Source of the DNA: an uncultured Gemmatimonadales bacterium
Lineage (GTDB): Bacteria > Gemmatimonadota > Gemmatimonadetes > Gemmatimonadales > GWC2-71-9
DNA: 64,000 nt
Reading direction: 5' to 3'
Assembly: GCA_963815325.1 (NCBI GenBank)
Contig: CAWFGG010000002.1
Coordinates: 709,472-773,471, forward strand
Part shown: positions 3,561 through 51,790 of the stretch, piece by piece
How the letters are laid out: every line of letters starts with the position of its first letter
How positions within the stretch are numbered: the first letter of the stretch is position 1
Position numbers and translations under genes: made by a program
Notes under the pieces: generated by a model
What the model was told of the DNA's origin: nothing
What the model saw: the letters and a program-made list of their open reading frames with translations, nothing else
The model's database searches: none

Positions 3561-3623
3561 AGCTAGTTGCTAGTCTCTGGTCGCTAGTCTCTAGTCTCGG
3601 TTCTCCTTACTCCTTACTCCATT
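3561..3623. repeat. heptamer microsatellite tracts: TAGTCTC-like units (3561-3598), then CTCCTTA x3 (3603-3623)
   Basis: Read directly: 'gctagttgctagtctctggtcgctagtctctagtctc' followed by 'ctcctta ctcctta ctccatt'. Starts 6 nt after the ADH stop codon. Confidence 0.8.
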
Positions 3624-3660
3624 ACCCTCGGTGCTGTCATCTACCCTCGGTGCTGTCATC
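3623..3660. repeat. perfect 19-bp tandem duplication 'taccctcggtgctgtcatc' x2, including the left terminus of the MITE-like element
   Basis: 3623-3641 and 3642-3660 are identical. The second unit runs straight into 'ccgagcgaagcgaggg'. Confidence 0.9.
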
Positions 3661-3793
3661 CCGAGCGAAGCGAGGGATCTCCTCAACGGTTCCCCGAAAG
3701 CGGCCTCGCCATGCGGCTCCCCGACCATGCGTTAATGAGATCCCTCGGGCACTTCGTGCCCTCGGGATGACAATTGGAGAAATGATCGACCTC
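3653..3793 (+). mobile_element. MITE-like / REP-like palindromic element, copy A (141 bp)
   Basis: Terminal inverted repeats: 'tgtcatcccgag' at the left end and 'ctcgggatgaca' at the right. Inner arms 'gagggatctc'/'gagatccctc'. A same-length, same-orientation copy lies at 8114-8254. No coding capacity beyond shadow ORFs. Confidence 0.6.
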
Positions 3794-3843
3794 CTCACTC
3801 CTTACTCCTTACTCCTTACTTCTTGCTCCTCAGTCCTCACTCC
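3791..3843. repeat. heptamer microsatellite (CTCCTYA)n, about 7.5 units; reads (TRAGGAG)n on the minus strand
   Basis: 'ctcctca ctcctta ctcctta ctcctta cttcttg ctcctca gtcctca ctcc'. Overlaps the stop codon (3837-3839) of the minus-strand amidohydrolase gene. Confidence 0.85.
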
Positions 3844-4542
3844 CCGCCAGTTCCCCGCACAGGGCAGCCACGCACCGCGCGCCGCACTTCCCGGCCGCGA
3901 GCGCCACGCCCCTTCATGTGCTTCTGGTTCACCTCGAGCTCGATCCCGAGATAGGCCGACGGGGGGAACCGGGTTCGCAGGTACGTGGTGAGGCCGTCGG
4001 TGTTGCCCCGATAGGGATAGTTCCGGCGCACGACGATCCGGGGACTCACGCCGCGGATCCTCTGCTGGATGGCTTTGCAGAACGACACTTCGAGACGGCG
4101 TGCGGGATCGTACAGGAGGCCGACGTCGGCCGTGCGGGTGACGTCGCGAAGACGAGGGGTGAAGCTGTGCACGCTCAGGTGCACCACCCGCCGACCGTCG
4201 CGGACCAGTCGCGCAAGTGCGACCATCGAGTTCGGTGCGGAACGGGACGTAGTACCGCTCGAGCACCAGGGCGCGCTCGTCGGGCCCGAGGCTGCGGGAG
4301 AACTCGGAGAACACGCGCGGGTGGTGCGGTGAGCGGTTGAGCTCGACCAAGAGTCGGGTCGTCCGGGAGGCCACGAGCGGGGCACGGAGCCGCCGGGCAA
4401 GTCTCACCGCGAGATCGAGCGCGCCCGCGTCATAGCCGCGATGGCTGGACAGGACCCGCCCGGCAGACGCGAACAAGTGGGCATAGCGCCGTGGAACCGT
4501 GTTGCCGCCGTGCTCGCACGACACCACCACGGCGCTAGGCAT
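3837..4542 (-). pseudogene. N-formylglutamate-amidohydrolase-fold (FGase/HutG-like) hydrolase, disrupted by a 1-nt frame change near 4227
   Basis: The N-terminal half 'MPSAVVVSCEHGGNTVP...ERYYVPFRTEL' is in the frame of ORF 3802-4575. The C-terminal half 'MVALARLVRDGRRVVHLSVHSFTPRL...YLGIELEVNQ' is in the frame of ORF 3837-4400. Together they give a colinear FGase-like protein. This could be a true pseudogene or an assembly indel. Confidence 0.7.
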
Positions 4543-5781
4543 CGTGGCCTGAGCTGCCTCCCCTCGGCCAGGCACGCCGCCAACTCCCGGTAGAGCGGCA
4601 CCATCCCGTCGCGAGATGGTCTACTGCCCAACCTGGCCAGCATGCGACGGGCGAGGCATCCGTCGCGCCCGATGACACCGAGCGGCGCATGCAATTCGGC
4701 CGCAATGGTGCCGTTGGTGCAGTATCGCTCCGCCAGCGCCCGCCAGAGATCCCCCACCGTGCGGCTCGGCGCGCCGCCACATCCCAACAGCATCAGGTAG
4801 TCGCCGTCCGGAACCGGTGCCGTGTCAGCCTGGTGAATGGTCGACTCCAGGAGTGCCCGCAACGCGGCACCCGGATAATCGCGCTGATCGGTCCACCGGC
4901 TGGTCTCCTCCGTGGCGAGCGCCTCGACCACCGCCGACACGAGGGCCGCGATGGCCACGTCGGCCTGGGGACATTCCTGCATGTCGATCACCCGGATCTC
5001 GACCGTGCCGCGGTCGAATCGAGCGATGGCCCCCCGGGCGTTTACCCACTCGTCCCGAAGGATTCCTTCGGGATCGAGCGGTGCCAAGTCGCGGTAGATG
5101 GGTTCGAGGATGCGTTCATTGTACTCCGCTTCCGACTCGACCGGTTCGGGAATGACCGCGCCGGCAATGGACGGGACGCGGGCGGCATTCGACTGATAGA
5201 CCGCGAGCCGGGTATCGAGCGAGCCGCTGACCACGCCGTCCGCGATGGGCGTGCTCGCGGCCAGGGCGGGGATGATCGGCAGCACTCAGACGAATAGCCG
5301 AGTGGAGCCTGGCGAACTCCGCGTCATCGGAGAAAGGCAGGTTGACGTGAACGCTTTGGAGATTGGCCCACCCGTGGCGGGCGCAATCGAACAGGCGATC
5401 GAATGTGGCGTACACCTCGTGGAACTCATGCGGCCAAATACGAAATTCCTGCTGCGGGTCCATCCAGGGGTGGGTGCCGGTTGGCAGGAGGCGCGCGTCC
5501 CACGACTCGAGCCGCTCATTGATGTACGCGACTTCGCCCTGGAATTGATCTGCGAGCCCGACGAGCGTGTCGACCGGGCCGTTGGTCTTGAGCTCGATCA
5601 GATGGAGCGCCAGCTCGTTGGACCAGCCCATGTTGCCGCGCTCGACATCGCACACGATGGTACCGGCCTCGGCTTCGAGCAGCCGGTCGGCAATGGGACG
5701 AACGACGAGAGACTCGGCATCGACGATCATGTACTCGAGCTCGATCCCGATCGCCTCGAACAGGCCGAGACGGGCGGTCAT
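4404..5781 (-). pseudogene. GCS2-type carboxylate-amine ligase (glutamate-cysteine-ligase family 2), frame change near 5286; true 3' end uncertain
   Basis: ATG 5779-5781 overlaps the upstream TGA (ATGA). 'MTARLGLFEAIGIELEYMIVD...FARLHSAIRL' is in one frame and 'VLPIIPALAASTPIADG...VEIRVIDMQECP...' continues in another. The second frame has no stop until 4404, which is 138 nt inside the next gene. The natural end is probably near 4535-4545. Confidence 0.7.
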
Positions 5782-7253
5782 AGCCTGGCCGGAGCCACGC
5801 CTCGTTCGTCGAGTTTGGTCCGGAAGTACTGCATGATGGACAGGTAGAGCTGGTCCCCCAGGATGGTGTCCTCGTACCCGGCGTCGATGGAGGGGTTGTC
5901 GTTGATCTCGATGATCCGGAACTTCCCGTCGATCTCCTTCACGTCCACACCGTAGAGTCCGTCGCCGACCAACGAGGCGGCCTTGACGCCCAACTCGACG
6001 GCGCGGGCCGGCGCGTCCTCCAACGCCACCGCTTCCACCTTGCCGTACCGTCGGCGGCCAGGGCGCCCACTGATGATCTGCCAATGGCCCCGTGCCATGT
6101 GGTATTTGCAGACATAGAGCGCCTCGCGATTCAGCACGCCGATCCGCCAGTCGAACCCGGTCGGCAGCCATTCCTGCACGATGGCCAGGTCGGACTGCTC
6201 GAACACCTGCTTCAAACACTCCACGAATTGGTCGTGCCCCTGCTCGATCTTGATGACCCCCTGCGAGAACGAGCTGTCCGGCAGCTTCACGACACAGGGA
6301 AACCCGATGGCGGCGGCGACCTCCTCGACATTGTCCTCATGAACCACCATGGTCTTCGGACACGGCAGGTCATAGCGGTCGAACAGCTCCGCCTGGTACA
6401 CCTTGTTCGAGCACCGGATGATCGATTCGGGGTCGTCCACGACAATCAGCCCCTCGGTCGCGGCGCGTTGGGCAAATCGAAATGTGTGGTGATCGACCGA
6501 GGTCACTTCGCGAATAAAGAGGGCGTCGAACTCCGCAATGCGACCGTAGTCCTCGGGACCGATGACGCTCGCGGCGATGCCGACGTCCTGCCCCGCTGCA
6601 ATGAACTTCTTGATCGAACGTTCCCAGGACGGGGCGTTTTCATCGAGTGGGTTCCAGAGAATCGCCAGATCGTAGCGGGCCACCTGGGGCTTCGCTCGGC
6701 GCGCGTGCTTCGGCTTGGCGAAGTACCGCCCCGCCTCGGCCTCCACGAAATCCTGGTGGGCTTCGGGGATTTCGCTGGTCGCAATGGCGCGGAGTCCCTG
6801 CAACTTCCAGCGCGCGTCCTCCCAGACAAAGCTGGCGCGGAGAAACGGCGCGGGAAACTGATTGAAGAGCGCACGGCTCAGCCGATCGTAGCGCTTCGCC
6901 AGGTTGCGCCCGAAGTAGATGCTCAGCTCGAATGATTCGGACTTGAGCGGCGCCAGGTTCCGTTGAATCAGATCGTCCAGGTCCTCCCCCACGATGCGCA
7001 GAATGGGCGAGAGCTGGAGCGCCTGGATGGTGGCCACCGAGGGCATGGGTTTGTGCCCCCGAGCGGCAGCGAGCAGCGATACGTAATAGCCCAGCCCTTG
7101 GTAGCCGTACCGGCGGCAGAGGTTGTAGACCGTGGTTCGGCGCAGTTCGGCGTAGCGCGGATCGGTCAGATAGGCGCGAGCCGAGACGACGTCCACGCCG
7201 GGAATCGTGAAGTGCCACCGCTTGGTGTTCTCGATGACGACGAGTGGCTTCAT
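5778..7253 (-). CDS. RimK-like ATP-grasp amidoligase with a roughly 200-aa N-terminal extension
   Basis: Intact 491-aa ORF. ATP-grasp blocks 'GFPCVVKLPDSSFSQGV', 'AIVQEWLPTGFDWRIGVL', 'GVDVKEIDGKFRIIEINDNPSID'. The N-terminal region 'YGYQGLGYYVSLLAAARGH' resembles the RimK-like ATP-grasp N-terminal domain as I recall it. Start ATG overlaps the upstream stop. Confidence 0.85.
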   Translation of the reverse strand: MKPLVVIENTKRWHFTIPGVDVVSARAYLTDPRYAELRRTTVYNLCRRYGYQGLGYYVSLLAAARGHKPMPSVATIQALQLSPILRIVGEDLDDLIQRNLAPLKSESFELSIYFGRNLAKRYDRLSRALFNQFPAPFLRASFVWEDARWKLQGLRAIATSEIPEAHQDFVEAEAGRYFAKPKHARRAKPQVARYDLAILWNPLDENAPSWERSIKKFIAAGQDVGIAASVIGPEDYGRIAEFDALFIREVTSVDHHTFRFAQRAATEGLIVVDDPESIIRCSNKVYQAELFDRYDLPCPKTMVVHEDNVEEVAAAIGFPCVVKLPDSSFSQGVIKIEQGHDQFVECLKQVFEQSDLAIVQEWLPTGFDWRIGVLNREALYVCKYHMARGHWQIISGRPGRRRYGKVEAVALEDAPARAVELGVKAASLVGDGLYGVDVKEIDGKFRIIEINDNPSIDAGYEDTILGDQLYLSIMQYFRTKLDERGVAPARL

Positions 7254-7975
7254 GGTTGGCTGGTGCCAGGCTGGATGACGAGCAGGTTAGCATCGTAGGT
7301 CAGTGCGCCGAGCAGCACCGCGCCCAACAGCCGCTGAATGCCCACCGAATAGTAGTGGGTGCCGAACCGCGGGTTGTCTTGGAAGGGATCTGCCACCAAT
7401 GCCTCGCGACTATCCGGGTCGTACCCGTAGAGCACCACGAAGTGCCCGGCCGGCTCTCCCCGGACATCGTCGTAGTAGAGCTTTTCCTTCCCACGCTCGC
7501 GCGCGCACCCGAACAGGTAGGTGGCGCTGAGCCCGGTTAGGACCGGGTGGCCACGGTTCAAGTATCGTCTTATCAAATCAGGGTTCAGTTCCTTGAACCG
7601 GATCCGGCCGCCCAGTTCGAGGAACCGGAGGTAGGCCTTCGTCGCAAAGCGAAGCTTCGCCGAGCGCTTGACCTTGGCCTGCGACCTGAGCCGTCCCGCC
7701 AAATCGACCTTCCGATCACCAAACCAGCTCGGGTCGAACACGTCGAGGTTGTAGGTGAAGATGGTGGCTTGGTAACCACGCTCGAGCGCGTGGCACGCCA
7801 AGAGGACCGCCAGGGTCCCGCCGCCTTTCAGTGGCTTGATCTCGTCGATGACCTGGCCCAGCGAGATAGTGTCGCCATAGTAGCGATAGACCGCATGCAG
7901 GCAAGTCGGCCCACAGGTCATGTCGTTGGGCTGGGGAAGGATCTCGAGGGTGAGCTTGGAGCTGCGGGGGTCCAC
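7250..7975 (-). CDS. papain-like cysteine peptidase (C39-like)
   Basis: 241-aa ORF with a GTG start. Catalytic-Cys motif 'QPNDMTCGPTCL' and His motif 'GHFVVLYGYD'. Stop overlaps the ATG of the ATP-grasp gene (7250-7253). Confidence 0.75.
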   Translation of the reverse strand: MDPRSSKLTLEILPQPNDMTCGPTCLHAVYRYYGDTISLGQVIDEIKPLKGGGTLAVLLACHALERGYQATIFTYNLDVFDPSWFGDRKVDLAGRLRSQAKVKRSAKLRFATKAYLRFLELGGRIRFKELNPDLIRRYLNRGHPVLTGLSATYLFGCARERGKEKLYYDDVRGEPAGHFVVLYGYDPDSREALVADPFQDNPRFGTHYYSVGIQRLLGAVLLGALTYDANLLVIQPGTSQP

Positions 7976-8113
7976 TGCAATTACGCCTTTCGTGCGGCAG
8001 TACGCGGGCGAGAAGTCTCAATGGTGCCGGGTCCGTCGTCAAGGGCAGGGATGTCTGACGCCTCAGCGGTTGGGCGGCCCGAAGGTTAGGCACGCACGGT
8101 TGCCCATCCCAGG

Positions 8114-8254
8114 CTGTCATCCCGAGCAAAGCGAGGGATCTCCTCAACCGTGCCCCGAACGCGGGCTCGTCCACGTAACCTACCGGCATGAGTCAGTAAG
8201 ATCCCTCGGGCGCTTCGCACCCTCGGGATGACAATCGGAGAAATACCCGACCTC
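8114..8254 (+). mobile_element. MITE-like / REP-like palindromic element, copy B (141 bp)
   Basis: Same termini and orientation as copy A. By-eye alignment shows the left ~50 nt and right ~57 nt nearly identical and the centre divergent. One compensatory a-t to g-c change in the 'gggcac ttc gtgccc' mini-hairpin. Confidence 0.6.
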
Positions 8255-8328
8255 TAAATCTTCCCACCTACCGCAGTCCGCGGCTGAAGCCGCGACTCGG
8301 CTGCTGTCGCTAAAGCGACTCCGCACCC

Positions 8329-8349
8329 CTCCCTACTCCCTACTCCTCC
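8329..8349. repeat. short heptamer tract CTCCCTA CTCCCTA CTCCTCC
   Basis: Read directly. Related to the CTCCTTA tract next to copy A. Confidence 0.6.
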
Positions 8350-24357: not shown

Positions 24358-25622
24358 TCAGGACGCTGACACCGGGGCGATCAAGCGATCCAGTGCATCA
24401 TCGGCCGGGGCACGGCCCTGTCTCGTGTAGCGCTCGAAGAAAGCCCGGGTAACCTCGAGGTCTCGCCCGGCGACGAACTCCGGCCCGAAGCGGCCGCATC
24501 CTTCCAAGGCAATTGCGAACAGGTCCGAGGCCACGTCCGCAATGTCCGGATCGGCCAGGCCATCGATTCCCGCTCGGAGGAGGAGTTCAGGATCGGGTGT
24601 GCCGATGAGATCGGCCGCCGCGTGGAGGCTCACGTGGTCGTACACGATGCCGGCGAGGAAACAGATGGGCACGGCATACCATTCGGGTGGAAGGGCGTCG
24701 ACCGAGCGGCATTCGAGATACCCCCTCGGCCGGACCTCGGGAAACAGGGTGGTGAGATGCGCGTGCCAATCGTCGAGGCTGGCCCCGCCCTCGGTCCACC
24801 ACCAGCTGAACGGACGGTATGCGCCACCGTCGAGCGGCAGCAACATGGCCGGCGCGTTCAGGGCAAATTGGAGATACTCCCCGACCGGGTCGGCAGATTG
24901 TGCCAAGAGTCCGGTCCGGCTCCGATCCGTGTTGCGCCATGTCTCCGCCCGGTAACTCTGGCATCCGGTGGGCACACCCCGGTAGATCGGAGAATTGGCG
25001 AAGATGGCAGTGAGGTAGGGGGCCAACGCGTTCAGCACCGTCCACCGCAGCGTCGGCTCTTCCAGGAAATCGAGGTTCACCTGGATGGCGGCGGTTTGAC
25101 GCATCATGCGCACACCGGTCCCACCGCGGGCCTCGAAATAGGCTGTCATCTTCCGATATCGAGGGGCGGAAAGCTGGAGCGGCACCTGGGCGAGGTCGTT
25201 CAGGGGGTCGATGCCTGTCGAGAGCATGGCAATGCCGGCATCTGATGCCGCCCGCACCAACGGCTGCATGGCACTCGCCATGCGCGGCATGAGCTCCGTG
25301 ATCGAACGGCACCGGGGAGAGCTGTACTCCAGCTGACCGCCGGGTTCCGGTGTCAACGTCCCTCCATCGGGAAGGCGAAACATCCAGGCGCCGCTGGGAT
25401 GCCGTGTCTCGACCCAATCCCGGGATGCACCATAGTGGCGCAAGAACGCGAGGCTCGAGCGACCCGACTCGGACTCGAACCGGCATACGGCACCTGATTC
25501 GGCGTCGACGGGGATGACCTCGACCTCGGCTCCAATGCCCCGGAGGGGCCTTCTGCCGCCTGGGTCGGAAGGCGTGCCGTTCCAAATCGATCGGCGAGGG
25601 GATCGGTGGCTCGGGTGGTCAT
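24358..25622 (-). CDS. egtA: EgtA-type glutamate-cysteine ligase; 5' end ambiguous (possible frameshift at 25545-25548)
   Basis: Body 'IGAEVEVIPVD...GGQLEYSSP...AAIQVNLD...TTLFPEVRPRGYLECRSVD'. An ATG at 25620-25622 overlaps the egtD stop (ATGA) but is in a different frame from the body. The in-frame ATG is at 25650. Confidence 0.75.
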
Positions 25623-26539
25623 GACGCGCCCTCCGCGAGCGCCAGGGCAAACCACTCCTTGGCGTCGGTCTTCCACTTGGTCAGCCGCAGGCCGGCGGCC
25701 TCGAGGAGGGCTGCGATGCTCTCCCGGTCGTACTTGCAGCTGATCTCGGTCCGGAGCGGCTCATTCTGTTTGAATCGGATCGCCCCGACGCCGGGAATCG
25801 TCACGCGTTGCTCCCGGAGGGAGTCCAGGTACATCTCGATCCGGTGCGCATTCACGTTGTAGACGGCGCGGTGCCGGAACTGCTCGAGATCGAAATCCGC
25901 ACCGAGCATGCGGTTGAGCACGCGCAGCACATTGCGATTGAACTCGGCGGTCACTCCTTCCGCATCGTTGTACGCGGCCTCCAGTACGCTCGAGTCCTTG
26001 CGCAGGTCGATGCCGAGGAGGAAGTAGTCGCCGCGATTCATGGCGGCGTGAACCCGCCGGAGCAGCGCTGTGGCCTTCTTCGGGCGGAAGTTGCCGATCG
26101 TGCTTCCGAGGAAGGCAAACAGGCGCGGCGCGGGAAGCGCGGTCGGGAGCACCAGCGGATCGGCCAGGTCCGCCACGGTTGGAAGCACCTTGAGTCCTGA
26201 GTATTCCAGCCGGAGGCGGTCGGCGGAGGCCTCGAGAAACTCGGCGCTCACGTCGATCGGTAGGTAGACAATCGGCGAGTGATCGGCCAGCATCGCATCG
26301 AGGATCGCGCGTGCCTTCTCGCCGCTGCCCGCTCCTAACTCCACCAACGTGCGGACGCCAAGGTGGGGAATGAGCTCAGGCATCCAGGTATCGAGGATTT
26401 CACGTTCGGTCCGGGTGGGATAGTACTCGGGTAGCTCGGTGATCCGTTCGAAGAGCTCGGACCCGCGGTGATCGTAGAAATATTTGGGCGGAATTTCTTT
26501 TGGCGAACGGGCGAGACCTGCCCGGATTTCCTCCGCCAT
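25619..26539 (-). CDS. egtD: L-histidine N-alpha-methyltransferase
   Basis: Start at 'MAEEIRAGL' within track ORF 25619-26803. 'IPPKYFYDHRGSELFERITELPEYYPTRTE', 'LVELGAGSGEK', 'FLGSTIGNF'. Confidence 0.9.
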   Translation of the reverse strand: MAEEIRAGLARSPKEIPPKYFYDHRGSELFERITELPEYYPTRTEREILDTWMPELIPHLGVRTLVELGAGSGEKARAILDAMLADHSPIVYLPIDVSAEFLEASADRLRLEYSGLKVLPTVADLADPLVLPTALPAPRLFAFLGSTIGNFRPKKATALLRRVHAAMNRGDYFLLGIDLRKDSSVLEAAYNDAEGVTAEFNRNVLRVLNRMLGADFDLEQFRHRAVYNVNAHRIEMYLDSLREQRVTIPGVGAIRFKQNEPLRTEISCKYDRESIAALLEAAGLRLTKWKTDAKEWFALALAEGAS

Positions 26540-26579
26540 GGAGGAGCCGATCGCCGCACGTCGGGAGGTGCCGGAACGG

Positions 26580-27887
26580 CTAGGCATCGGCCGCACAGCG
26601 GAAGCCACTGAAGATCTGCCGCCGGATGGGGTAGTCCCAGTTCCGGAAGGTGCTCCGGATGGCGCCGGCGCGCGTGGCCCAGGAGCCGCCGCGCAGCACC
26701 TTGTACTCCGACCCGAAGAACACCTCGGAATACTCCGGATAGGGATACGGCTGAAAGCCTGGATAGCCGCGGAAGTCGCTGCTGGTCCACTCCCACACGT
26801 CACCGATCATGCCATAGCACCCCAGCGGTGAGACATTCCGAGCGAACGAGCCGATCACGGCGGTGTCGAAGGCCGATTGGTCGACGTTGGCCAGGTCGGG
26901 AGTTGGGGGCGCCTCGCCCCAGGGAAACGCCGCGGCTCGTCCCGTTGCCGGATCCCACGTGGCGGCAACCTCCCACTCGATTTCGGTCGGCAACCGCTTG
27001 CCTGCCCACCGCGCATAGGCCTCCGCCTCATGGTAACACACATGGCACACCGGTTTGTTCCCCTCGATCGGCCCGGTGGCGTCCATGACCCGGGTGTGCC
27101 ACGCTCCATCCCGCTGGAACCAGTACTTCGGGGCGTTGACGTCGGATTCCGTCCGCCAACGCCAGCCCTCGGGAGACCACAGCTCCGGGCTGTCGTAGCC
27201 GCCCGCCGCCATGAACTCCAGGTACTCGCCGTTCATCACCGGCGTGCGATCGATGCCAAACGGCCGGAGTTGCTCGTGGTGCCGGGGACGCTCGTTATCG
27301 TACGCGGCGCGCCGGTCTTCGGTCCCGATTGAAACGTCACCGCCATCGAAGCGTGCTATACCGCTCGGCTCCAACTTTGGAGCGGGGAGAACACGCCGCC
27401 CAACCGGGTGATACGGCTCACCCTGCTTCAGCTGGAGCGTCTGCAGGATGGTCTCATTGTGCTGGTACTCGTGCTGGAGCACCATGTGATACACATACCC
27501 GTTGCGCAGCAACGGGTGAGCCGACCCGAGATCCGCCCGGGCGAGACGGTCCAGCACCCGATGGCGGATGTCGGCCATGCGCCGGATGATCTCCGCGAGG
27601 TCGGGCAGTTTCAGCGACGCGCGCTCGCTCCGCGGGTGTTCCATGGGGTTGAACAGCCCGGGCATCTCCACGAACTTGATGTCACCGTCCACATTCCGGG
27701 TCAGCCACAGCTCCTCGAAATGCGAGATGTGGCCGAGGTCCCAGAGGATCGGGCTCATGAGCGGGTCGTGCTGGATGCTGAGATCCTCGCGTGTGAGCGG
27801 GCGGATCAGCTCGAGCGTGCGGGCGCGCGCCTCGCCCAGCCGTTCGGCGATGTGCTCGTTGAGTGAGGAAGTCGTGCTGAGGGACAT
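26580..27887 (-). CDS. egtB: hercynine oxygenase / sulfoxide synthase (DinB_2 + FGE-sulfatase fold)
   Basis: Start at 'MSLSTTSSLNEHI' within track ORF 26580-28016. 'SPILWDLGHISHFEELW', 'NVWEWTSSDF', 'KVLRGGSWAT'. Confidence 0.9.
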   Translation of the reverse strand: MSLSTTSSLNEHIAERLGEARARTLELIRPLTREDLSIQHDPLMSPILWDLGHISHFEELWLTRNVDGDIKFVEMPGLFNPMEHPRSERASLKLPDLAEIIRRMADIRHRVLDRLARADLGSAHPLLRNGYVYHMVLQHEYQHNETILQTLQLKQGEPYHPVGRRVLPAPKLEPSGIARFDGGDVSIGTEDRRAAYDNERPRHHEQLRPFGIDRTPVMNGEYLEFMAAGGYDSPELWSPEGWRWRTESDVNAPKYWFQRDGAWHTRVMDATGPIEGNKPVCHVCYHEAEAYARWAGKRLPTEIEWEVAATWDPATGRAAAFPWGEAPPTPDLANVDQSAFDTAVIGSFARNVSPLGCYGMIGDVWEWTSSDFRGYPGFQPYPYPEYSEVFFGSEYKVLRGGSWATRAGAIRSTFRNWDYPIRRQIFSGFRCAADA

Positions 27888-28110
27888 CGGGGATGGAACT
27901 CCGCGCTGAGCCGGAAGTCTAGGGAATCTGGCCGGCTGCGTCGGATGTGCAAGGCCGGTGCACGGTGTGAGGGGCACGTCCATGACACCGTGAGCCACGA
28001 CTGCGGCGGCACCCACCGCGAACGTATCCAGAATCGGTGCCGGCGGTTATGATGATGGGAGTCCCTGCCCATTGCCTCTCAGCCGGAGTCCAGGCCACCA
28101 GGAGTCCAGC

Positions 28111-29742
28111 ATGATACGCCGAGATTTTCTCCATCGAGGCACCGTTGCTGCCGGCATCCTCGGCATCCATCCATGGGGTAGACGGCTTGGCGACTGGGTT
28201 GGAGCACTCACCCCGATTCCGACCGCCGACAAGAAGCGCCTCGCCGATGTGGCCCTCGAGGCCGCCCGCTCGGCCGGGGCGAGCTATACGGACGTGCGCA
28301 TCGGCCGATACCTGAACGAGTCGCTGAGCGCCAGGGAAACCAACATTCAGAGCATAACCACCAGCGAGTCCTATGGCGCCGGCATTCGCGTCATTGCGGA
28401 CGGTACCTGGGGGTTTGCCGCTACCAATGATGTGACGGAAGACGGAATGGCCGCGGCCGCGCGTCAGGCGGCCGCGATGGCCAAGGCCAATGCGCCACTT
28501 CAATCCGAACCAGTCAGGTTGGCCCCCCAACGCGGCTTCGGCGAGGTATCGTGGCGCACGCCCATCGAGACCAATGCCTTCGAGGTGCCGATCGGGGAGA
28601 AGGTCGACCTCCTGCTCGAGACCAACAATGCGGCGCTGTCCGCCGGAGCGAGCTATATCAGCTCGGCGCTCTATTTCGTCAATGAGCAGAAATACTTCGC
28701 CTCGAGCGACGGATCGTACATCGACCAGGACGTCCACCGTCTTCGACCAGGCTTCACGGTCACGGTGGTGGATCCCGAGTCTGGTCGCTTCGAGACCCGT
28801 GAATCCCTTAGCTCACCCATGGGGATGGGCTACGAGTACCTCTCCGGGAGAGCGAGCGGTAAGATCGCGGGGCCGGCCACCACGGTCTACGGCCAGTATT
28901 ACGACATGATCGAGGACGCCAGGAACGCGGCAGTCGAGGCCCGCGCGAAACACGACGCGACCTCCGTCGCGGCCGGGACATACGACCTCGTGCTCGACCC
29001 CAGTCATCTCTGGCTCACCATCCACGAATCGGTGGGCCACCCGTTGGAGCTCGATCGCGTGCTCGGCTATGAGGCGAATTACGCCGGGACCAGCTTCGCC
29101 AGTCTCGACAAGTGGCGGAGCGAGAGTTTCCAGTATGGCAGCCCGATCGTGAATTTTGTCGCCGACAAGACCCAGGCCACGTCGCTTGCCGCGGTGGGGT
29201 ACGACGACGAGGGCGTCCAAACCAAGCAGTGGGATCTGGTCCGGAATGGCATCCTGGTCAATTACCAAGCGACCCGTGATCAGGTGCACGTCCTCGGTGA
29301 GGCCGAAGGACAGGGATGCTCGTTTGCCGACCATTGGAGCACGATCCAGTTCCAGCGCATGCCCAACGTCTCGCTCGAGCCCGGCACGGCCCCGCTGACC
29401 GTCGCGGAGATGATCGCCGGCGTGGAGAAGGGCATCTATATCCTGGGTGACGGTTCCTACTCCATCGACCAGCAACGCTACAATTTCCAGTTTGGTGGCC
29501 AGCTGTTTTATGAAATTCGGAACGGCCGCATTGCCGGCATGCTCAAGGACGTCGCCTACCAAGCGAACACCCAGACGTTCTGGAACTCCTGCAGCCGGAT
29601 CTGCGATCAGCGCGATTATCGGCTGGGCGGGTCGTTCTTCGACGGGAAGGGCCAGCCCGGCCAGGTCAGCGCCGTCTCCCACGGGACGTCGACCGCGCGG
29701 TTCGATGCCGTCAATGTGCTGAATACGGCCCGAAAGGTCTGA
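28111..29742 (+). CDS. TldD-family metalloprotease with a twin-arginine (Tat) signal
   Basis: 'MIRRDFLHRGTVAAGILGI' matches the Tat consensus. TldD blocks 'SYGAGIRVIADGTWGFAAT' and 'HESVGHPLELD' (HExxxH). Confidence 0.85.
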   Translation: MIRRDFLHRGTVAAGILGIHPWGRRLGDWVGALTPIPTADKKRLADVALEAARSAGASYTDVRIGRYLNESLSARETNIQSITTSESYGAGIRVIADGTWGFAATNDVTEDGMAAAARQAAAMAKANAPLQSEPVRLAPQRGFGEVSWRTPIETNAFEVPIGEKVDLLLETNNAALSAGASYISSALYFVNEQKYFASSDGSYIDQDVHRLRPGFTVTVVDPESGRFETRESLSSPMGMGYEYLSGRASGKIAGPATTVYGQYYDMIEDARNAAVEARAKHDATSVAAGTYDLVLDPSHLWLTIHESVGHPLELDRVLGYEANYAGTSFASLDKWRSESFQYGSPIVNFVADKTQATSLAAVGYDDEGVQTKQWDLVRNGILVNYQATRDQVHVLGEAEGQGCSFADHWSTIQFQRMPNVSLEPGTAPLTVAEMIAGVEKGIYILGDGSYSIDQQRYNFQFGGQLFYEIRNGRIAGMLKDVAYQANTQTFWNSCSRICDQRDYRLGGSFFDGKGQPGQVSAVSHGTSTARFDAVNVLNTARKV

Positions 29743-29744
29743 CC

Positions 29745-31061
29745 ATGACACTCATTTCCGAACGCGACGCGCGGCGTCTGCTCGAACGGGTCCTGGCGTT
29801 CTCGCGCGCCGATTCCTGCGAAGCTCGGGTCACGGGACGCCGTGGCGGTAACATCCGATATGCCAGAAACACCGTGACCACCAGCGGGAGCAGCGACAAC
29901 GCCACTCTCGACGTGACCTCCACCTTCGGCAGGCGAAGCGGCACCGCGTCCATCAACGAGTTCGACGCCGACAGTCTCGAGCGTGCCGTGCGGCGGTCCG
30001 AAGAGTTGGCGCGGCTCGCGCCCGAGAACCCCGAGTTCATGCCGTTCCTGGGCCCCCAATCGTACGTCGACACCTCGCCCTGGGCCGATGCCACGGCGGC
30101 CATCACTCCCGACGTCCGGGCCCGGGCCGCCGGGGCCGGCATCGCGGGTGCCAAGACGAGCGGACTCGCCGCCGCGGGCTTCTGGGAGGATGAAGCGTCG
30201 ACCCGCGCTCTCATGAATACCGCGGGGCTGTTCGCCTACTCCCGGGACACACACGTTGATTTCTCGGTCACGGCCCGCACGCCCGACGGCACCGGATCCG
30301 GCTGGGTGGGCCAGAGCTACAATGACGTCTCCAAGCTCGACGCCGGGCAGGCCTCCGAGATCGCACACCAGAAGGCGATCGCCTCAAAGAACCCCACGAC
30401 GCTCGAGCCAGGGCAGTACACCGCGGTTCTCGAGCCAGCGGCCGCGGCGCCACTGGTCGGCAACCTGCTCTACAACATGGACGCGCGGCAAGCGGACGAA
30501 GGCCGGAGCTTCTTGTCGATGCCGGGCGGTGGGACCAAACTCGGCGAACGGGTCCTGGGAACGGACATCACCATCGCGTCCGATCCCACCCACCCCGACG
30601 TGCCCACGGCGGCATGGGCGTCCGACGGCCGGCCCCTCCAGCCCATCACCTGGATCAATCGCGGCGTGGTCGAGTCGCTGTTCTCTTCCCGGTTCTGGGC
30701 CGACAAGCAGGGCGTCAGCGCCACGCCCCGACCGTCCAACATCATCCTGTCCGGCGGGACGGACTCGCTGGAGGACCTCATCGCCACCACCGAACGGGGC
30801 GTGCTGGTCACGCGGACATGGTACATTCGGACGGTCGATTCGCAGACGCTTCTGTACACCGGGCTCACGCGAGACGGGACGTTCTGGATCGAAGGCGGGG
30901 TGGTGCGCCACGCCATCAGAAACTTCCGGTTCAACGAGAGCCCCATCGCCATGCTCAACAACGTCGAAGCCCTCGGTCGATCCGTCCGGACCGGCCGGCA
31001 TATGATTCCGCCCATGCGGGTAAGCAATTTCACCTTTTCGAGCCTCTCCGATGCCATCTGA
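29745..31061 (+). CDS. PmbA/TldE-family partner protein (no signal peptide)
   Basis: 438 aa, ATG 2 nt after the TldD stop. 'NIRYARNTVTTSG' and 'RGVLVTRTWYIR' are PmbA/TldD-fold blocks. Confidence 0.8.
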   Translation: MTLISERDARRLLERVLAFSRADSCEARVTGRRGGNIRYARNTVTTSGSSDNATLDVTSTFGRRSGTASINEFDADSLERAVRRSEELARLAPENPEFMPFLGPQSYVDTSPWADATAAITPDVRARAAGAGIAGAKTSGLAAAGFWEDEASTRALMNTAGLFAYSRDTHVDFSVTARTPDGTGSGWVGQSYNDVSKLDAGQASEIAHQKAIASKNPTTLEPGQYTAVLEPAAAAPLVGNLLYNMDARQADEGRSFLSMPGGGTKLGERVLGTDITIASDPTHPDVPTAAWASDGRPLQPITWINRGVVESLFSSRFWADKQGVSATPRPSNIILSGGTDSLEDLIATTERGVLVTRTWYIRTVDSQTLLYTGLTRDGTFWIEGGVVRHAIRNFRFNESPIAMLNNVEALGRSVRTGRHMIPPMRVSNFTFSSLSDAI

Positions 31062-50914: not shown

Positions 50915-51427
50915 CTAGGTGAACACGATGTGACCGCCGCCGGCCATTTCGTAGAATTCCCCAACGGTGATGACACGCTCGACCTGCGGAATGAAGTCGT
51001 CCATCGACCAGCCGAACATGTCGACCGAAGCCTTGCAGGCAAACAGCTTGCCACCGGAATCGGAGATCATCTCGAGGAACTCGGGAATCGGCGGGATGTC
51101 GAGCTTCTCCATGGTCTTGGACATTTGCCGGGTCACCATGGCCGACATTCCCGGCACGCCGCCGAGCCAGGTCATGAGATGGAGCCCGGGATTGCCCACG
51201 GTCGCGACCTTCACGCGGTGGGTCCGATCCTTGTGGATGGCATCCATTCCGAAAAAGGTGAAGAACACGTTGGCCTCGATACCCTCCATCCGGGCTCCGT
51301 TCGCCATGATCAGGCCGGGATAGATCCCTTCGAGCGATCCCTTGGAAACAATGATCGAGACTTTCTTGATCGCCTCATCCACCGGTGTGGGCACCGCCGT
51401 GGATTCGGGCATGATCGTGCTGGTCAT
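50915..51427 (-). CDS. DsrE/DsrF-like sulfur-relay family protein (COG2210-type)
   Basis: 170 aa. 'VSIIVSKGSLEG', 'FFTFFGMD' and the conserved Cys block 'KLFACKASVDMFG'. Confidence 0.7.
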   Translation of the reverse strand: MTSTIMPESTAVPTPVDEAIKKVSIIVSKGSLEGIYPGLIMANGARMEGIEANVFFTFFGMDAIHKDRTHRVKVATVGNPGLHLMTWLGGVPGMSAMVTRQMSKTMEKLDIPPIPEFLEMISDSGGKLFACKASVDMFGWSMDDFIPQVERVITVGEFYEMAGGGHIVFT

Positions 51428-51442
51428 GGACTTCTCCTCCTC

Positions 51443-51769
51443 TTAGATACACCCGCGCGGCTTGGGAATCCCGGCGATCCTGGCGGCCAGTTTGGCCGGA
51501 CCCTTGGGAAACAACTGGTAGAGTTCCTTGATCGGCACGCCCGATTCCTTACCGAGGGCCCGGATCGAGGGCGCACTGCCGGCCTCGAGAAACCGCTTTC
51601 GCATGAATTCGATGACCATCCAATGCTTCGGGGTGAGTTCGCCAATCCCGATGTCGTCAGCGATTTCCTCGGCAATCGACTTGGTCCACTGCTCTGGCTT
51701 CTGCATGTACCCTTCGCCGTCGACATCGACGGTCTGTCCGGCAATTGTGGTCTGGCTCGTCGCGGTCAC
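51443..51769 (-). CDS. TusE/DsrC-family sulfur carrier
   Basis: 108 aa. 'LTPKHWMVIEFMRKRFLE' and the C-terminal arm 'GIPKPRGCI', which has a single Cys (TusE-like). Confidence 0.8.
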   Translation of the reverse strand: MTATSQTTIAGQTVDVDGEGYMQKPEQWTKSIAEEIADDIGIGELTPKHWMVIEFMRKRFLEAGSAPSIRALGKESGVPIKELYQLFPKGPAKLAARIAGIPKPRGCI

Positions 51770-51790
51770 AGGCTTGACTCCTTCTCGTAA

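What the first reader, a model, noticed from the sequence alone, without database searches (positions are those of the whole stretch)
3837..7975. Four-gene 'two ligases + two hydrolases' amidoligase cassette of unknown product
Minus-strand genes running from 7975 to 3837 are translationally coupled. TGA and ATG share bases at 7250-7253 and 5778-5781. The last start, at 4542, lies inside the tail of the preceding frame.

The four products are:
- a papain-like C39-type Cys peptidase ('QPNDMTCGPTC', 'GHFVVLYGYD')
- an ATP-grasp ligase that is RimK/GshB-like ('IIEINDNPSID'), behind a roughly 200-aa N-terminal extension
- a GCS2-type carboxylate-amine ligase ('IGIELEYMIVD')
- an N-formylglutamate-amidohydrolase-fold enzyme ('SCEHGGN', 'HLSVHSFTP')

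Two ATP-dependent amide-bond formers plus two amide-bond breakers fits a ribosome-independent peptide or gamma-glutamyl-conjugate pathway. It also fits a protein C-terminal tagging and untagging system. I recall similar neighbourhoods being noted in comparative-genomic surveys of amidoligases. I know of no experimentally defined product or phenotype.
Basis: partly seen in the sequence, partly recalled or inferred. Interest (0 to 1): 0.75.

Follow-up and report, generated by a model that had tools for sequence, protein, structure and literature searches.

The report
Orphan glutamyl-ligase cassette, two genes frameshifted
This is a real, widely conserved four-gene operon (cysteine peptidase, RimK-type ligase, GCS2 ligase, FGase-type hydrolase) whose product nobody has identified; comparative genomics had already noticed it, and in this genome two of the four genes are broken by single-base insertions.

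Summary
The four family assignments and both ATGA overlaps are confirmed. The genes are a C39-like Cys peptidase, an RLAN+RimK-type ATP-grasp ligase, a GCS2 carboxylate-amine ligase and an FGase-fold amidohydrolase.

The cassette is conserved in the same order across at least ten phyla. More than 598 species-representative genomes carry the ligase. Of 65 loci with full flanks, 56 have peptidase-ligase-GCS2 and 38 have all four genes. No other neighbour and no small ORF is conserved.

No curated NCBIfam model reaches its cut-off, PADLOC finds nothing, and no experimental paper was found. I recall the neighbourhood from Iyer et al. 2009 and the Pfam RLAN entry, so this is a new member of a known but uncharacterised kind.

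In this window GCS2 and FGase carry four +1 insertions, at 5286, 4543, 4217 and about 3871. At every site each close relative covers, it lacks the insertion. None lies in a homopolymer, and no other frame-breaking indel or split domain was found in the rest of the window that was examined. The insertions are present in the public 838-kb contig. dN/dS is low and every ≥95%-conserved residue is kept, so this is either very recent inactivation or a local consensus error.

Most likely function: ribosome-independent synthesis and trimming of a small glutamate-containing peptide or conjugate. This is inferred, not shown.

The parts
7250..7975 (-). Stand-alone cytoplasmic papain-fold Cys peptidase (C39-like), 241 aa, GTG start. 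The catalytic residues Q15, C21, H178 and D196 are invariant.
   Evidence: - Pfam PF13529 and PF03412.
- Invariant residues in 42 homologues.
- AF2 model with pLDDT 88.8.
- Foldseek hits: PeiR endoisopeptidase 9e-7, PCAT1/ComA C39 domains, and phytochelatin synthase Alr0975 1.4e-5.
5778..7253 (-). RLAN plus RimK-type ATP-grasp ligase, 491 aa, intact. Its ATG overlaps the peptidase stop (ATGA).
   Evidence: - Pfam RLAN 4.7e-47 and RimK 2.6e-5.
- 98% identical to a 'RimK family protein' of a Gemmatimonadales MAG.
- Aligns to LysX and RimK across the catalytic core, including the GVDV...EINDNP motif.
6741..7181 (-). RLAN domain (residues 25-171), very strongly conserved. Its predicted fold resembles part of an ATP-grasp enzyme.
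   Evidence: - Invariant residues include N44, Y51, Q52, G55-S59, R65 and W149.
- AF2 model with pLDDT 87.7.
- All 50 Foldseek PDB hits listed are ATP-grasp enzymes, but the match is weak: E 2.6e-4 and TM about 0.55.
- No sequence-level signal supports the fold match.
4535..5781 (-). GCS2-family carboxylate-amine ligase, 414 aa when repaired. It is broken by +1 insertions at 5286 and 4543.
   Evidence: - Pfam GCS2 is split across two frames.
- Insertions located by alignment to relatives.
- Repaired translation is 91-97% identical to intact relatives and keeps every ≥95%-conserved residue.
3830..4542 (-). FGase-fold (N-formylglutamate-amidohydrolase family) enzyme, 236 aa when repaired. It is broken by +1 insertions at 4217 and 3871/3872.
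   Evidence: - Pfam FGase is split across two frames.
- Insertions located by alignment to relatives.
- Closest solved structure is Atu2144 (2ODF), 9e-25.
5286..5286 (-). Inserted base 1 (A on the minus strand, CGTCTG[A]GTGCTG), mid-GCS2.
   Evidence: Absent in L001, L084 and L088.
4543..4543 (-). Inserted base 2 (G, GGCCAC[G]ATGCC), three codons before the GCS2 stop and just 5' of the FGase ATG.
   Evidence: - Absent in L001, L084, L085 and L088.
- The read-through 293-aa fragment is on record in the public 838,076-bp contig.
4217..4217 (-). Inserted base 3 (C, GTCGCA[C]TTGCG), mid-FGase.
   Evidence: Absent in L001, L084 and L085.
3871..3872 (-). Inserted base 4 (C or G, GCGGTG[CG]TGGCTG). 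It alters the last 14 residues of FGase.
   Evidence: - Absent in L084 and L085.
- Removing it restores ...RRAVLAALCGELAGSED*, as in the relatives.
8113..8254 (-). Upstream copy of a roughly 140-bp MITE/REP-like palindromic element in the peptidase 5' region.
   Evidence: Only two copies occur in 64 kb, against 0 expected by chance. Alignment.
3652..3793 (-). Downstream copy of the same element, just 3' of FGase, in the same orientation.
   Evidence: Copies located and aligned. It folds as a long hairpin, -64 kcal/mol, z = -4.4.

Best explanation
A self-contained, translationally coupled operon of four soluble enzymes. It belongs to a widespread, horizontally spread and experimentally uncharacterised cassette.

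Most likely role: it builds and trims a small glutamate-containing peptide or conjugate without ribosome or NRPS.

Proposed steps, all inferred rather than shown:
1. The GCS2 ligase uses ATP to join the gamma-carboxyl of glutamate to an amine X. This is the EgtA/GshA type of reaction.
2. The RLAN-RimK ATP-grasp ligase adds L-glutamate through its amino group to a free carboxylate of that intermediate. This is the chemistry shared by the RimK, LysX, MptN and CofF family. The RLAN domain would act as a docking or substrate module.
3. The papain-fold Cys peptidase, always next to the ATP-grasp gene, trims or transfers the product, as RimB does for RimK.
4. The FGase-fold hydrolase, always directly after GCS2 and sometimes replaced by an EgtC-like class-II amidotransferase, removes a glutamyl group, as EgtC does after EgtA.

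In this genome the deposited sequence carries four +1 insertions that break GCS2 and FGase. As written, only the peptidase and the ATP-grasp ligase can be made. Whether this reflects very recent inactivation or a local consensus error cannot be decided without reads; I put it at roughly 50:50.
For: Shown:
- Family assignments.
- Intact catalytic residues.
  - Peptidase Q15, C21, H178 and D196.
  - ATP-grasp K323, D437, E449 and N451.
  - GCS2 E14, E16 and H60, and FGase H11.
- Conserved order across phyla, with no other conserved neighbour.
- No conserved small ORF, so no dedicated precursor or carrier protein is encoded nearby.
- MFS transporters adjoin the cassette in 6 loci, which fits a small-molecule product.
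- Some loci replace FGase with an EgtC-like GATase_4 gene, or carry a divergent FGase, directly after GCS2.
- GNAT-RLAN-RimK fusions exist, which suggests N-capped small acceptors.
- The best NCBIfam similarities are LysX, MptN and RimK, all glutamate- or aminoadipate-adding ligases.
- The structural neighbours of the peptidase include an isopeptidase and a gamma-Glu-Cys transpeptidase.
- RimB-RimK is an experimentally characterised precedent for a ligase-peptidase pair (PMC11957791).

Frameshift evidence.
Against: - No substrate, product or phenotype is known for any member.
- All NCBIfam hits are far below their cut-offs, so substrate inference by homology is weak.
- The MFS association holds in only 6 of 80 loci.
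- The hydrolase pairings rest on gene adjacency and analogy.
- A trans-encoded protein target cannot be excluded.
- In this window two of the genes are unreadable as deposited.
Confidence: 0.5

Rival explanations
1. Protein tagging and untagging. The RLAN-RimK ligase (poly)glutamylates the C-terminus or a side chain of a protein encoded elsewhere, as RimK does on S6 or LysX on LysW. The Cys peptidase and the FGase-fold (carboxypeptidase-superfamily) enzyme act as deglutamylases. GCS2 adds a gamma-linked branch or primes the tag.
For: - Membership of the RimK/LysX family.
- The RimK+RimB ligase/protease precedent.
- The large, invariant RLAN domain could be a protein-docking surface. Its best structural matches include LysX and ArgX, which dock LysW.
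- The peptidase resembles endoisopeptidases and C39 peptide-processing domains.
Against: - No conserved target, carrier or small ORF lies near the cassette in 80 loci.
- MFS transporters and GNAT fusions point to small molecules.
- RimK curated cut-offs are missed by a wide margin.
Confidence: 0.25
2. A glutathione-like or phytochelatin-like thiol pathway. GCS2 makes gamma-Glu-Cys and the ATP-grasp ligase acts like GshB, adding a third residue (probably Glu). The papain-fold enzyme acts as a phytochelatin-synthase-like gamma-Glu-Cys transpeptidase. The product could be plain glutathione or a close analogue.
For: - GCS2 plus an ATP-grasp ligase mirrors GshA plus GshB.
- A weak NCBIfam hit to a glutathione synthetase model, 2.9e-12.
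- Foldseek similarity of the peptidase to Alr0975 phytochelatin synthase, 1.4e-5.
Against: - All gamma-Glu-Cys ligase equivalog models score 18-59 bits against cut-offs of 249-437.
- The ATP-grasp is closer to RimK, LysX and MptN than to GshB.
- No Pfam Phytochelatin hit.
- TM-score to Alr0975 is only about 0.42.
- The window already encodes a separate EgtA-like GCS2 next to egtB and egtD.
Confidence: 0.15
3. The four insertions are a local consensus or polishing error in a long-contig MAG assembly built from mixed strains. The real organism has an intact, functional cassette.
For: - All four changes are +1 insertions outside homopolymers.
- They cluster in 1.4 kb. None is seen in the first 2.6 kb of the cassette against L083, in 3.4 kb of neighbouring sequence against L088, or in about 20 other genes tested by Pfam coverage.
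- dN/dS is unchanged. GCS2 is 0.14 and FGase 0.26 (window against L001), against 0.10 and 0.23 between intact relatives.
- No ≥95%-conserved residue is lost.
- At 4543 and 3871 the extra base equals the alternative allele of an adjacent SNP seen in relatives. This is the pattern expected when two alleles are written in series.
- The locus is strain-diverse and mosaic.
- An independent short-read contig of the same strain ends 62 bp before the first site.
Against: - The insertions are in the public assembly, because the exact 293-aa fragment is on record.
- No independent read-level data were available.
- Sites 5286 and 4217 do not match known alleles.
- No intact copy at ≥99% identity was found in the databases.
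Confidence: 0.5
4. Genuine recent pseudogenisation. This strain has lost GCS2 and FGase and keeps only the peptidase and ATP-grasp ligase, so the cassette is non-functional or rewired here.
For: - Disruptions are confined to the two distal genes, consistent with decay after a first inactivating hit.
- They are present in the deposited contig.
- About 10% of surveyed loci naturally lack GCS2 and FGase next to the ligase.
Against: - Four indels with no excess of non-synonymous change and no hit to conserved residues is unexpected for neutral decay.
- All four are insertions, although bacterial decay is deletion-biased (established knowledge).
- None lies in a slippage-prone run.
Confidence: 0.45

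Closest known systems
The RLAN-RimK / GCS2 / FGase / papain-like-peptidase neighbourhood predicted by Iyer, Abhiman, Burroughs & Aravind 2009 (Mol Biosyst 5:1636), the source of Pfam PF14401 RLAN. Cited from memory; the paper is not held.
   Same: Same four families, same domain architecture (RLAN N-terminal to a RimK-type ATP-grasp) and same gene order. The GNAT-RLAN variants I recall from the Pfam description were also recovered.
   Different: Nothing essential differs. This copy has two frame-broken genes. The ATP-grasp-like predicted fold of RLAN is not, to my knowledge, part of the original description.
RimK-RimB(-RimA) ribosomal protein S6 polyglutamylation system (PMC11957791)
   Same: A RimK-family ATP-grasp ligase paired with a dedicated peptidase that trims what the ligase adds. 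The chemistry adds glutamate.
   Different: - Here the peptidase is a papain-fold Cys enzyme, not a retropepsin.
- The ligase carries a 180-aa RLAN domain and misses the RimK cut-offs.
- A GCS2 ligase and an FGase hydrolase are added.
- No RimA is present, and the target is unknown.
EgtA/EgtC of ergothioneine biosynthesis, and the gamma-glutamyl protecting-group logic of butirosin BtrJ/BtrG/BtrH (own knowledge)
   Same: A GCS2-family ligase installs a gamma-glutamyl group that a dedicated amidohydrolase later removes. In some cassette loci the hydrolase is a GATase_4, the EgtC family. There is a weak BtrH_N hit for the peptidase.
   Different: No EgtB, EgtD or EgtE and no aminoglycoside genes lie in the cassette. 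The usual hydrolase is FGase-fold, not Ntn. The amine substrate is unknown.
Glutathione synthesis (GshA + GshB) with phytochelatin synthase
   Same: A carboxylate-amine ligase, an ATP-grasp ligase and a papain-fold enzyme acting on gamma-glutamyl peptides.
   Different: Curated GshA and GshB models are not reached. The ATP-grasp belongs to the RimK/LysX branch. The peptidase is only a remote structural neighbour of Alr0975.
LysW/LysX amino-group carrier protein system
   Same: LysX is the best NCBIfam and PDB relative of the ATP-grasp core and of the RLAN model.
   Different: No LysW-like small protein is encoded nearby, and no lysine or arginine biosynthesis genes are present.

Membership tests
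RLAN-RimK/GCS2/FGase/papain-peptidase cassette (Iyer et al. 2009; Pfam PF14401) | RLAN domain fused N-terminally to a RimK-type ATP-grasp | tested here: met
   PF14401 at 4.7e-47 (residues 25-171) and PF08443 (residues 282-457) in one 491-aa ORF.
RLAN-RimK/GCS2/FGase/papain-peptidase cassette (Iyer et al. 2009; Pfam PF14401) | Adjacent GCS2 ligase, FGase hydrolase and papain-fold peptidase on the same strand | tested here: met
   All three are present and translationally coupled. GCS2 and FGase are frame-broken in this copy.
RLAN-RimK/GCS2/FGase/papain-peptidase cassette (Iyer et al. 2009; Pfam PF14401) | Same neighbourhood recurs in unrelated genomes | tested here: met
   Of 65 loci with full flanks, 56 have peptidase-ligase-GCS2 and 38 have all four genes in the same order. 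Phyla include Planctomycetota, Myxococcota, Pseudomonadota, Bacteroidota, Acidobacteriota, Nitrospirota and Spirochaetota.
RimK (ribosomal protein S6--L-glutamate ligase) | Score at or above the curated NCBIfam cut-off (TIGR00768 143.4; PRK10446 331) | tested here: not met
   60.8 and 22.4 bits.
RimK (ribosomal protein S6--L-glutamate ligase) | ATP-grasp catalytic core with Mg/ATP ligands | tested here: met
   Invariant K284, K323, D437, E449 and N451. Aligns to LysX, RimK and 7QYR across GVDV...EINDNP.
RimK (ribosomal protein S6--L-glutamate ligase) | Modifies the C-terminal Glu of S6, with partner RimB/RimA | not testable with these tools
   No retropepsin or EAL gene lies in the cassette. 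The target is not determinable in silico.
Gamma-glutamylcysteine ligase, GCS2/YbdK/EgtA type | Pfam GCS2 above the gathering score | tested here: met
   45.4 and 31.2 bits for the two halves, against a threshold of 21.
Gamma-glutamylcysteine ligase, GCS2/YbdK/EgtA type | Reaches an NCBIfam equivalog or subfamily cut-off for Glu-Cys ligase or YbdK | tested here: not met
   Best score is 60.1 bits against 176.4. The others score 18-59 against 249-437.
Gamma-glutamylcysteine ligase, GCS2/YbdK/EgtA type | Uninterrupted reading frame | tested here: not met
   +1 insertions at 5286 and 4543.
N-formylglutamate amidohydrolase (HutG) | Pfam FGase domain | tested here: met
   The N half scores 39.3 bits against a threshold of 28.9. 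The C half scores 25.0. Together they cover profile positions 2-216 of 219. 2ODF matches at 9e-25.
N-formylglutamate amidohydrolase (HutG) | Histidine-utilisation (hut) gene context or an NCBIfam name | tested here: not met
   No NCBIfam family hit. No conserved neighbour other than the cassette genes.
Peptidase C39 (bacteriocin leader peptidase) | C39 or C39_2 domain with a Gln/Cys/His/Asp active site | tested here: met
   PF13529 at 42.9 bits and PF03412 at 27 bits. Q15, C21, H178 and D196 are invariant.
Peptidase C39 (bacteriocin leader peptidase) | Fusion to or adjacency with an ABC exporter and a double-glycine precursor peptide | tested here: not met
   The protein is a stand-alone 241-aa enzyme. 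No conserved small ORF or ABC transporter occurs in 80 loci.
Pup-type tagging (PafA/Dop) | Small tag protein gene and a ligase/deamidase pair of the PafA/Dop family | tested here: not met
   No conserved small ORF. The ligase is GCS2, not Pup_ligase.
Known anti-phage defence systems | Match to a PADLOC model | tested here: not met
   0 hits for all four proteins.

The most novel reading that the evidence does not exclude
The cassette is a self-sufficient glutamyl 'writer/eraser' module. It would make a still-unknown, widespread bacterial metabolite of the gamma-Glu-X-Glu(n) type, or modify a trans-encoded protein. Its RLAN domain would be a degenerate, catalytically dead half ATP-grasp that docks the substrate or a partner enzyme. 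That would be a new class of small peptide or post-translational mark, present in hundreds of environmental species across more than ten phyla.
Probability: 0.3. Interest if true: 0.7.

Novelty: new member of a known kind. Interest (0 to 1): 0.4.

Why it matters
The cassette is an orphan. It has four well-conserved enzymes at 45-65% identity across phyla, and more than 598 species-representative genomes carry the ligase. It has no known product.

Defining that product would add a ribosome-independent peptide or conjugate pathway, or a bacterial glutamylation mark. It would also give a function to the RLAN domain.

For this particular window the practical message is different. Two genes are frame-broken in the deposited assembly. 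Experiments should therefore use an intact relative, and the locus is a useful test case for consensus errors in long-contig MAGs.

Tried and rejected
1. **Link to Ngg, the N-acetylglutaminylglutamine synthetase.** GNAT-RLAN-RimK fusions exist. A tblastn of one against 72,556 plasmids and chromids returned 17 records, none of them a Sinorhizobium replicon, so no link to Ngg was found. I did not check that pSymB, which carries ngg, is in that collection. The idea is dropped.
2. **RiPP or carrier-protein system.** No conserved ORF of 20-89 aa lies within 1.2 kb of the cassette in 80 loci. Only antisense shadows of the core genes appeared.
3. **Extra conserved components.** All-vs-all clustering of ORFs of at least 90 aa found only the four families.
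4. **Riboswitch or other RNA upstream.** No Rfam hit, even at E ≤ 1.
5. **Defence system.** No PADLOC hit.
6. **Programmed frameshifting.** The four sites have no slippery or homopolymer context, and relatives are in frame.
7. **Sequence homology of RLAN to ATP-grasp.** hhalign of RLAN against its own ATP-grasp gave probability 0.6%. An hmmsearch of the RLAN profile against PDB found nothing. Only the Foldseek match supports the fold relation.
8. **An independent intact copy of the same strain.**
   - The nearest short-read contig stops 62 bp short of the first insertion.
   - The repaired proteins are not in the collection.
   - The best intact GCS2 is 96.9% identical.
9. **GC3 frame-tracking to find further frameshifts.** The method was too noisy. 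Pfam coverage was used instead.

Full report
**What is in the sequence**

On the minus strand between 7975 and about 3830 lie four consecutive genes.
- The 241-aa product of 7975..7250 is a C39-like papain-fold peptidase (PF13529 9.5e-11, PF03412 4e-6).
- The 491-aa product of 7253..5778 has an RLAN domain (PF14401, 4.7e-47, residues 25-171) followed by a RimK-type ATP-grasp.
- Next come a GCS2 carboxylate-amine ligase and an FGase-fold amidohydrolase.
- The ATGA overlaps at 7253-7250 and 5781-5778 are real.

**The frameshifts**

GCS2 and FGase are each split between two reading frames. Pfam profile positions are 2-146 | 150-282 for GCS2 and 2-122 | 121-216 for FGase.

The closest public relatives are Gemmatimonadales MAG and metagenome contigs:
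- L001 (GCA_035464955.1), L002, L084 and L085, at 79-92% nt identity.
- L088 at 96% nt identity.

In the relatives the genes are intact, at 241, 491, 414 and 236 aa where the contig reaches the gene end.

Pairwise alignments show four uncompensated single-base insertions in the window. They lie at 5286, 4543, 4217 and 3871/3872. At every site each relative covers, it lacks the insertion. Removing them restores full-length proteins. The restored GCS2 is 91-97% identical to its intact relatives, and the restored FGase 90% to L001. Both keep every residue that is ≥95% conserved in the family.

The natural stop is at 3832-3830.

**Are the insertions real?**

They are in the public assembly. The exact 293-aa fragment encoded by 5285..4404 is on record from the same 838,076-bp NCBI/ENA contig as the window's ligase and peptidase.

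They are local.
- A 99.76%-identical short-read contig (L083) shows no indel from 8228 to 5348, but it ends 62 bp before the first site.
- The 3.4 kb of neighbouring genes shows no indel against L088, apart from an intergenic simple repeat at about 8326-8334.
- No coding indel is seen against L001.
- About 20 other genes across the window have full-length Pfam coverage in one frame.

Several features are unusual for neutral decay.
- dN/dS for the repaired genes is 0.14 (GCS2) and 0.26 (FGase). Between intact relatives it is 0.10 and 0.23.
- All four events are +1 insertions outside homopolymers.

There is a hint of a mixed-strain consensus error. At 4543 and 3871 the extra base equals the alternative allele of an adjacent SNP in relatives. 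The locus is strain-diverse and mosaic.

I cannot decide between a very recent pseudogene and a local consensus error without reads, and I rate the two about equally.

**Is the cassette more than chance?**

Each of the ligase, the peptidase and GCS2 has more than 7,000 homologues at 50-65% identity in public data.

Counts among the 80 best loci:
| Feature | Loci |
|---|---|
| Peptidase directly upstream of the ligase | 71 of 77 |
| GCS2 directly downstream of the ligase | 61 of 71 |
| Peptidase-ligase-GCS2, among loci with full flanks | 56 of 65 |
| All four genes in the same order, among loci with full flanks | 38 of 65 |

The loci come from Planctomycetota, Myxococcota, Gamma- and Betaproteobacteria (Thiobacillus, Nitrosomonas, Legionella), Bacteroidota, Acidobacteriota, Nitrospirota, Spirochaetota, Verrucomicrobiota and others.

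Clustering of all flanking ORFs found no further conserved gene and no conserved small ORF.

Where FGase is missing, the slot after GCS2 can hold other genes:
- a divergent FGase;
- a class-II amidotransferase of the EgtC family (GATase_4);
- an MFS transporter, seen adjoining the cassette in 6 loci.

One further locus (L011) has a GNAT plus CN-hydrolase gene between GCS2 and FGase.

**The parts**

Peptidase:
- It keeps an invariant Gln15, Cys21, His178 and Asp196.
- I saw no N-terminal hydrophobic stretch by eye, so it is probably cytoplasmic.
- Its AF2 model has pLDDT 88.8.
- The model is remotely closest to the pseudomurein endoisopeptidase PeiR, to C39 domains of PCAT1 and ComA, and to the gamma-Glu-Cys transpeptidase Alr0975. 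TM-scores are about 0.42-0.5.

ATP-grasp core:
- It aligns to LysX and RimK through the Mg/ATP motifs.
- It scores best against LysX, MptN and RimK family models, all enzymes that add glutamate or aminoadipate through its amine. It remains far below every curated cut-off.

RLAN domain:
- It is extremely conserved.
- Its AF2 model has pLDDT 87.7.
- All 50 Foldseek PDB hits listed for the model are ATP-grasp enzymes, but the match is weak, at E 2.6e-4 and TM about 0.55.
- No sequence or profile signal backs this up. I treat 'degenerate ATP-grasp-like module' as a lead only.

The RLAN family is compact, at 739 clusters at 50% identity. It includes GNAT-RLAN-RimK and GNAT-RLAN variants.

FGase is closest to the structural-genomics protein Atu2144.

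**How it most likely works (inferred)**

Gene adjacency and analogous replacement suggest two ligase/hydrolase pairs.
- The RimK-type ligase pairs with the Cys peptidase, as RimK pairs with RimB. RimB trims and stimulates RimK (PMC11957791).
- GCS2 pairs with the FGase or EgtC-like hydrolase, as EgtA pairs with EgtC in ergothioneine synthesis (own knowledge).

The simplest scheme has four steps:
1. GCS2 makes a gamma-glutamyl amide.
2. The ATP-grasp adds alpha-linked glutamate to a free carboxylate.
3. The hydrolases trim, mature or recycle the product.
4. The result is a small Glu-containing peptide or conjugate.

I favour a small molecule over a protein tag, at about 0.5 against 0.25. The reasons are the lack of any linked precursor or carrier gene, the occasional MFS transporters and the GNAT fusions.

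A glutathione- or phytochelatin-like thiol is a sub-case I rate at about 0.15. The curated Glu-Cys ligase and GshB models are missed by a wide margin, and the window has a separate EgtA-like GCS2 beside egtB and egtD.

**Comparison with what is known**

The neighbourhood matches the one I recall from Iyer et al. 2009, which also gave rise to Pfam RLAN. The paper could not be opened here.

RefSeq annotation of a Legionella adelaidensis copy uses only generic names. Literature searches found no experimental work on the cassette.

A suspected link to Ngg (NAGGN synthesis, PMC8070244) was tested: a tblastn of a GNAT-RLAN-RimK fusion against the plasmid/chromid collection returned no Sinorhizobium replicon, so the link was dropped.

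**Verdict**

The system is a new member of a known, computationally described but experimentally orphan kind. This particular copy is frame-broken in the deposited sequence.

Interest is moderate (0.4). It is a good target for product discovery, but it is not a surprise to a specialist, and intact relatives are better material for experiments.

Noticed in passing
window 8113-8254 and 3652-3793 (minus strand): Two direct copies (about 83% identical) of a roughly 140-bp palindromic MITE/REP-like element (GTCATCCCGAGGG...CCCTCG...CGGGATGAC) bracket the cassette exactly. They are the only copies in 64 kb. The element folds into a long hairpin (-64 kcal/mol, z -4.4). The relative L085 has the downstream copy and L084 lacks it.
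   Followed up: partly
window 3600-3650, 3795-3840, 8320-8345: Purine-rich simple repeats (GGAGTAAGGAGT / GGGAGTAGGGAG) flank the palindromic elements. Their length varies between relatives, and they are the only indel-rich spots against L088.
   Followed up: no
window 24358-28046 (minus strand): An ergothioneine-type cluster: EgtB-like (DinB_2 + FGE-sulfatase), EgtD-like (Methyltransf_33, 7.7e-109) and a second, intact GCS2 ligase (EgtA-like, 1.1e-42). No EgtC was looked for.
   Followed up: partly
window 27994-31061 (plus strand): A tandem TldD/PmbA metallopeptidase pair lies next to the egt cluster.
   Followed up: no
window 50915-51790 (minus strand): Adjacent DsrE-like and DsrC-like genes (sulfur relay), separated only by a stop codon in the same frame.
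   Followed up: no
window 8000-4400 vs L088, L001, L084: The divergence pattern is mosaic. The window is nearly identical to L088 over 8000-6700 and closer to L001/L084 over 6600-6300. The short-read contig L083 confirms this haplotype up to 5348. This indicates recombination among co-existing strains at this locus.
   Followed up: partly
L086 (P. aeruginosa plasmid pZYPA1927; by memory the PAO1 homologue would be PA1345): A divergent RLAN-RimK protein (529 aa, 'RimK family alpha-L-glutamate ligase') sits beside a glutamate/aspartate ABC transporter, ggt and an aminotransferase. It has no peptidase, GCS2 or FGase nearby, so RLAN ligases also occur in other glutamate-related contexts.
   Followed up: no
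L089/L090 (ENA metagenome contigs): The GNAT-RLAN-RimK tri-domain variant (646 aa) sits next to a CitMHS/DcuC carboxylate transporter and a second GNAT. No C39 peptidase lies upstream and no GCS2 downstream.
   Followed up: partly
cluster 1: The 90%-identity protein cluster returned for the ligase also contains the 414-aa GCS2 proteins of the same contigs. This is an oddity of the clustering and not biology, but it can mislead cluster-based counts.
   Followed up: no
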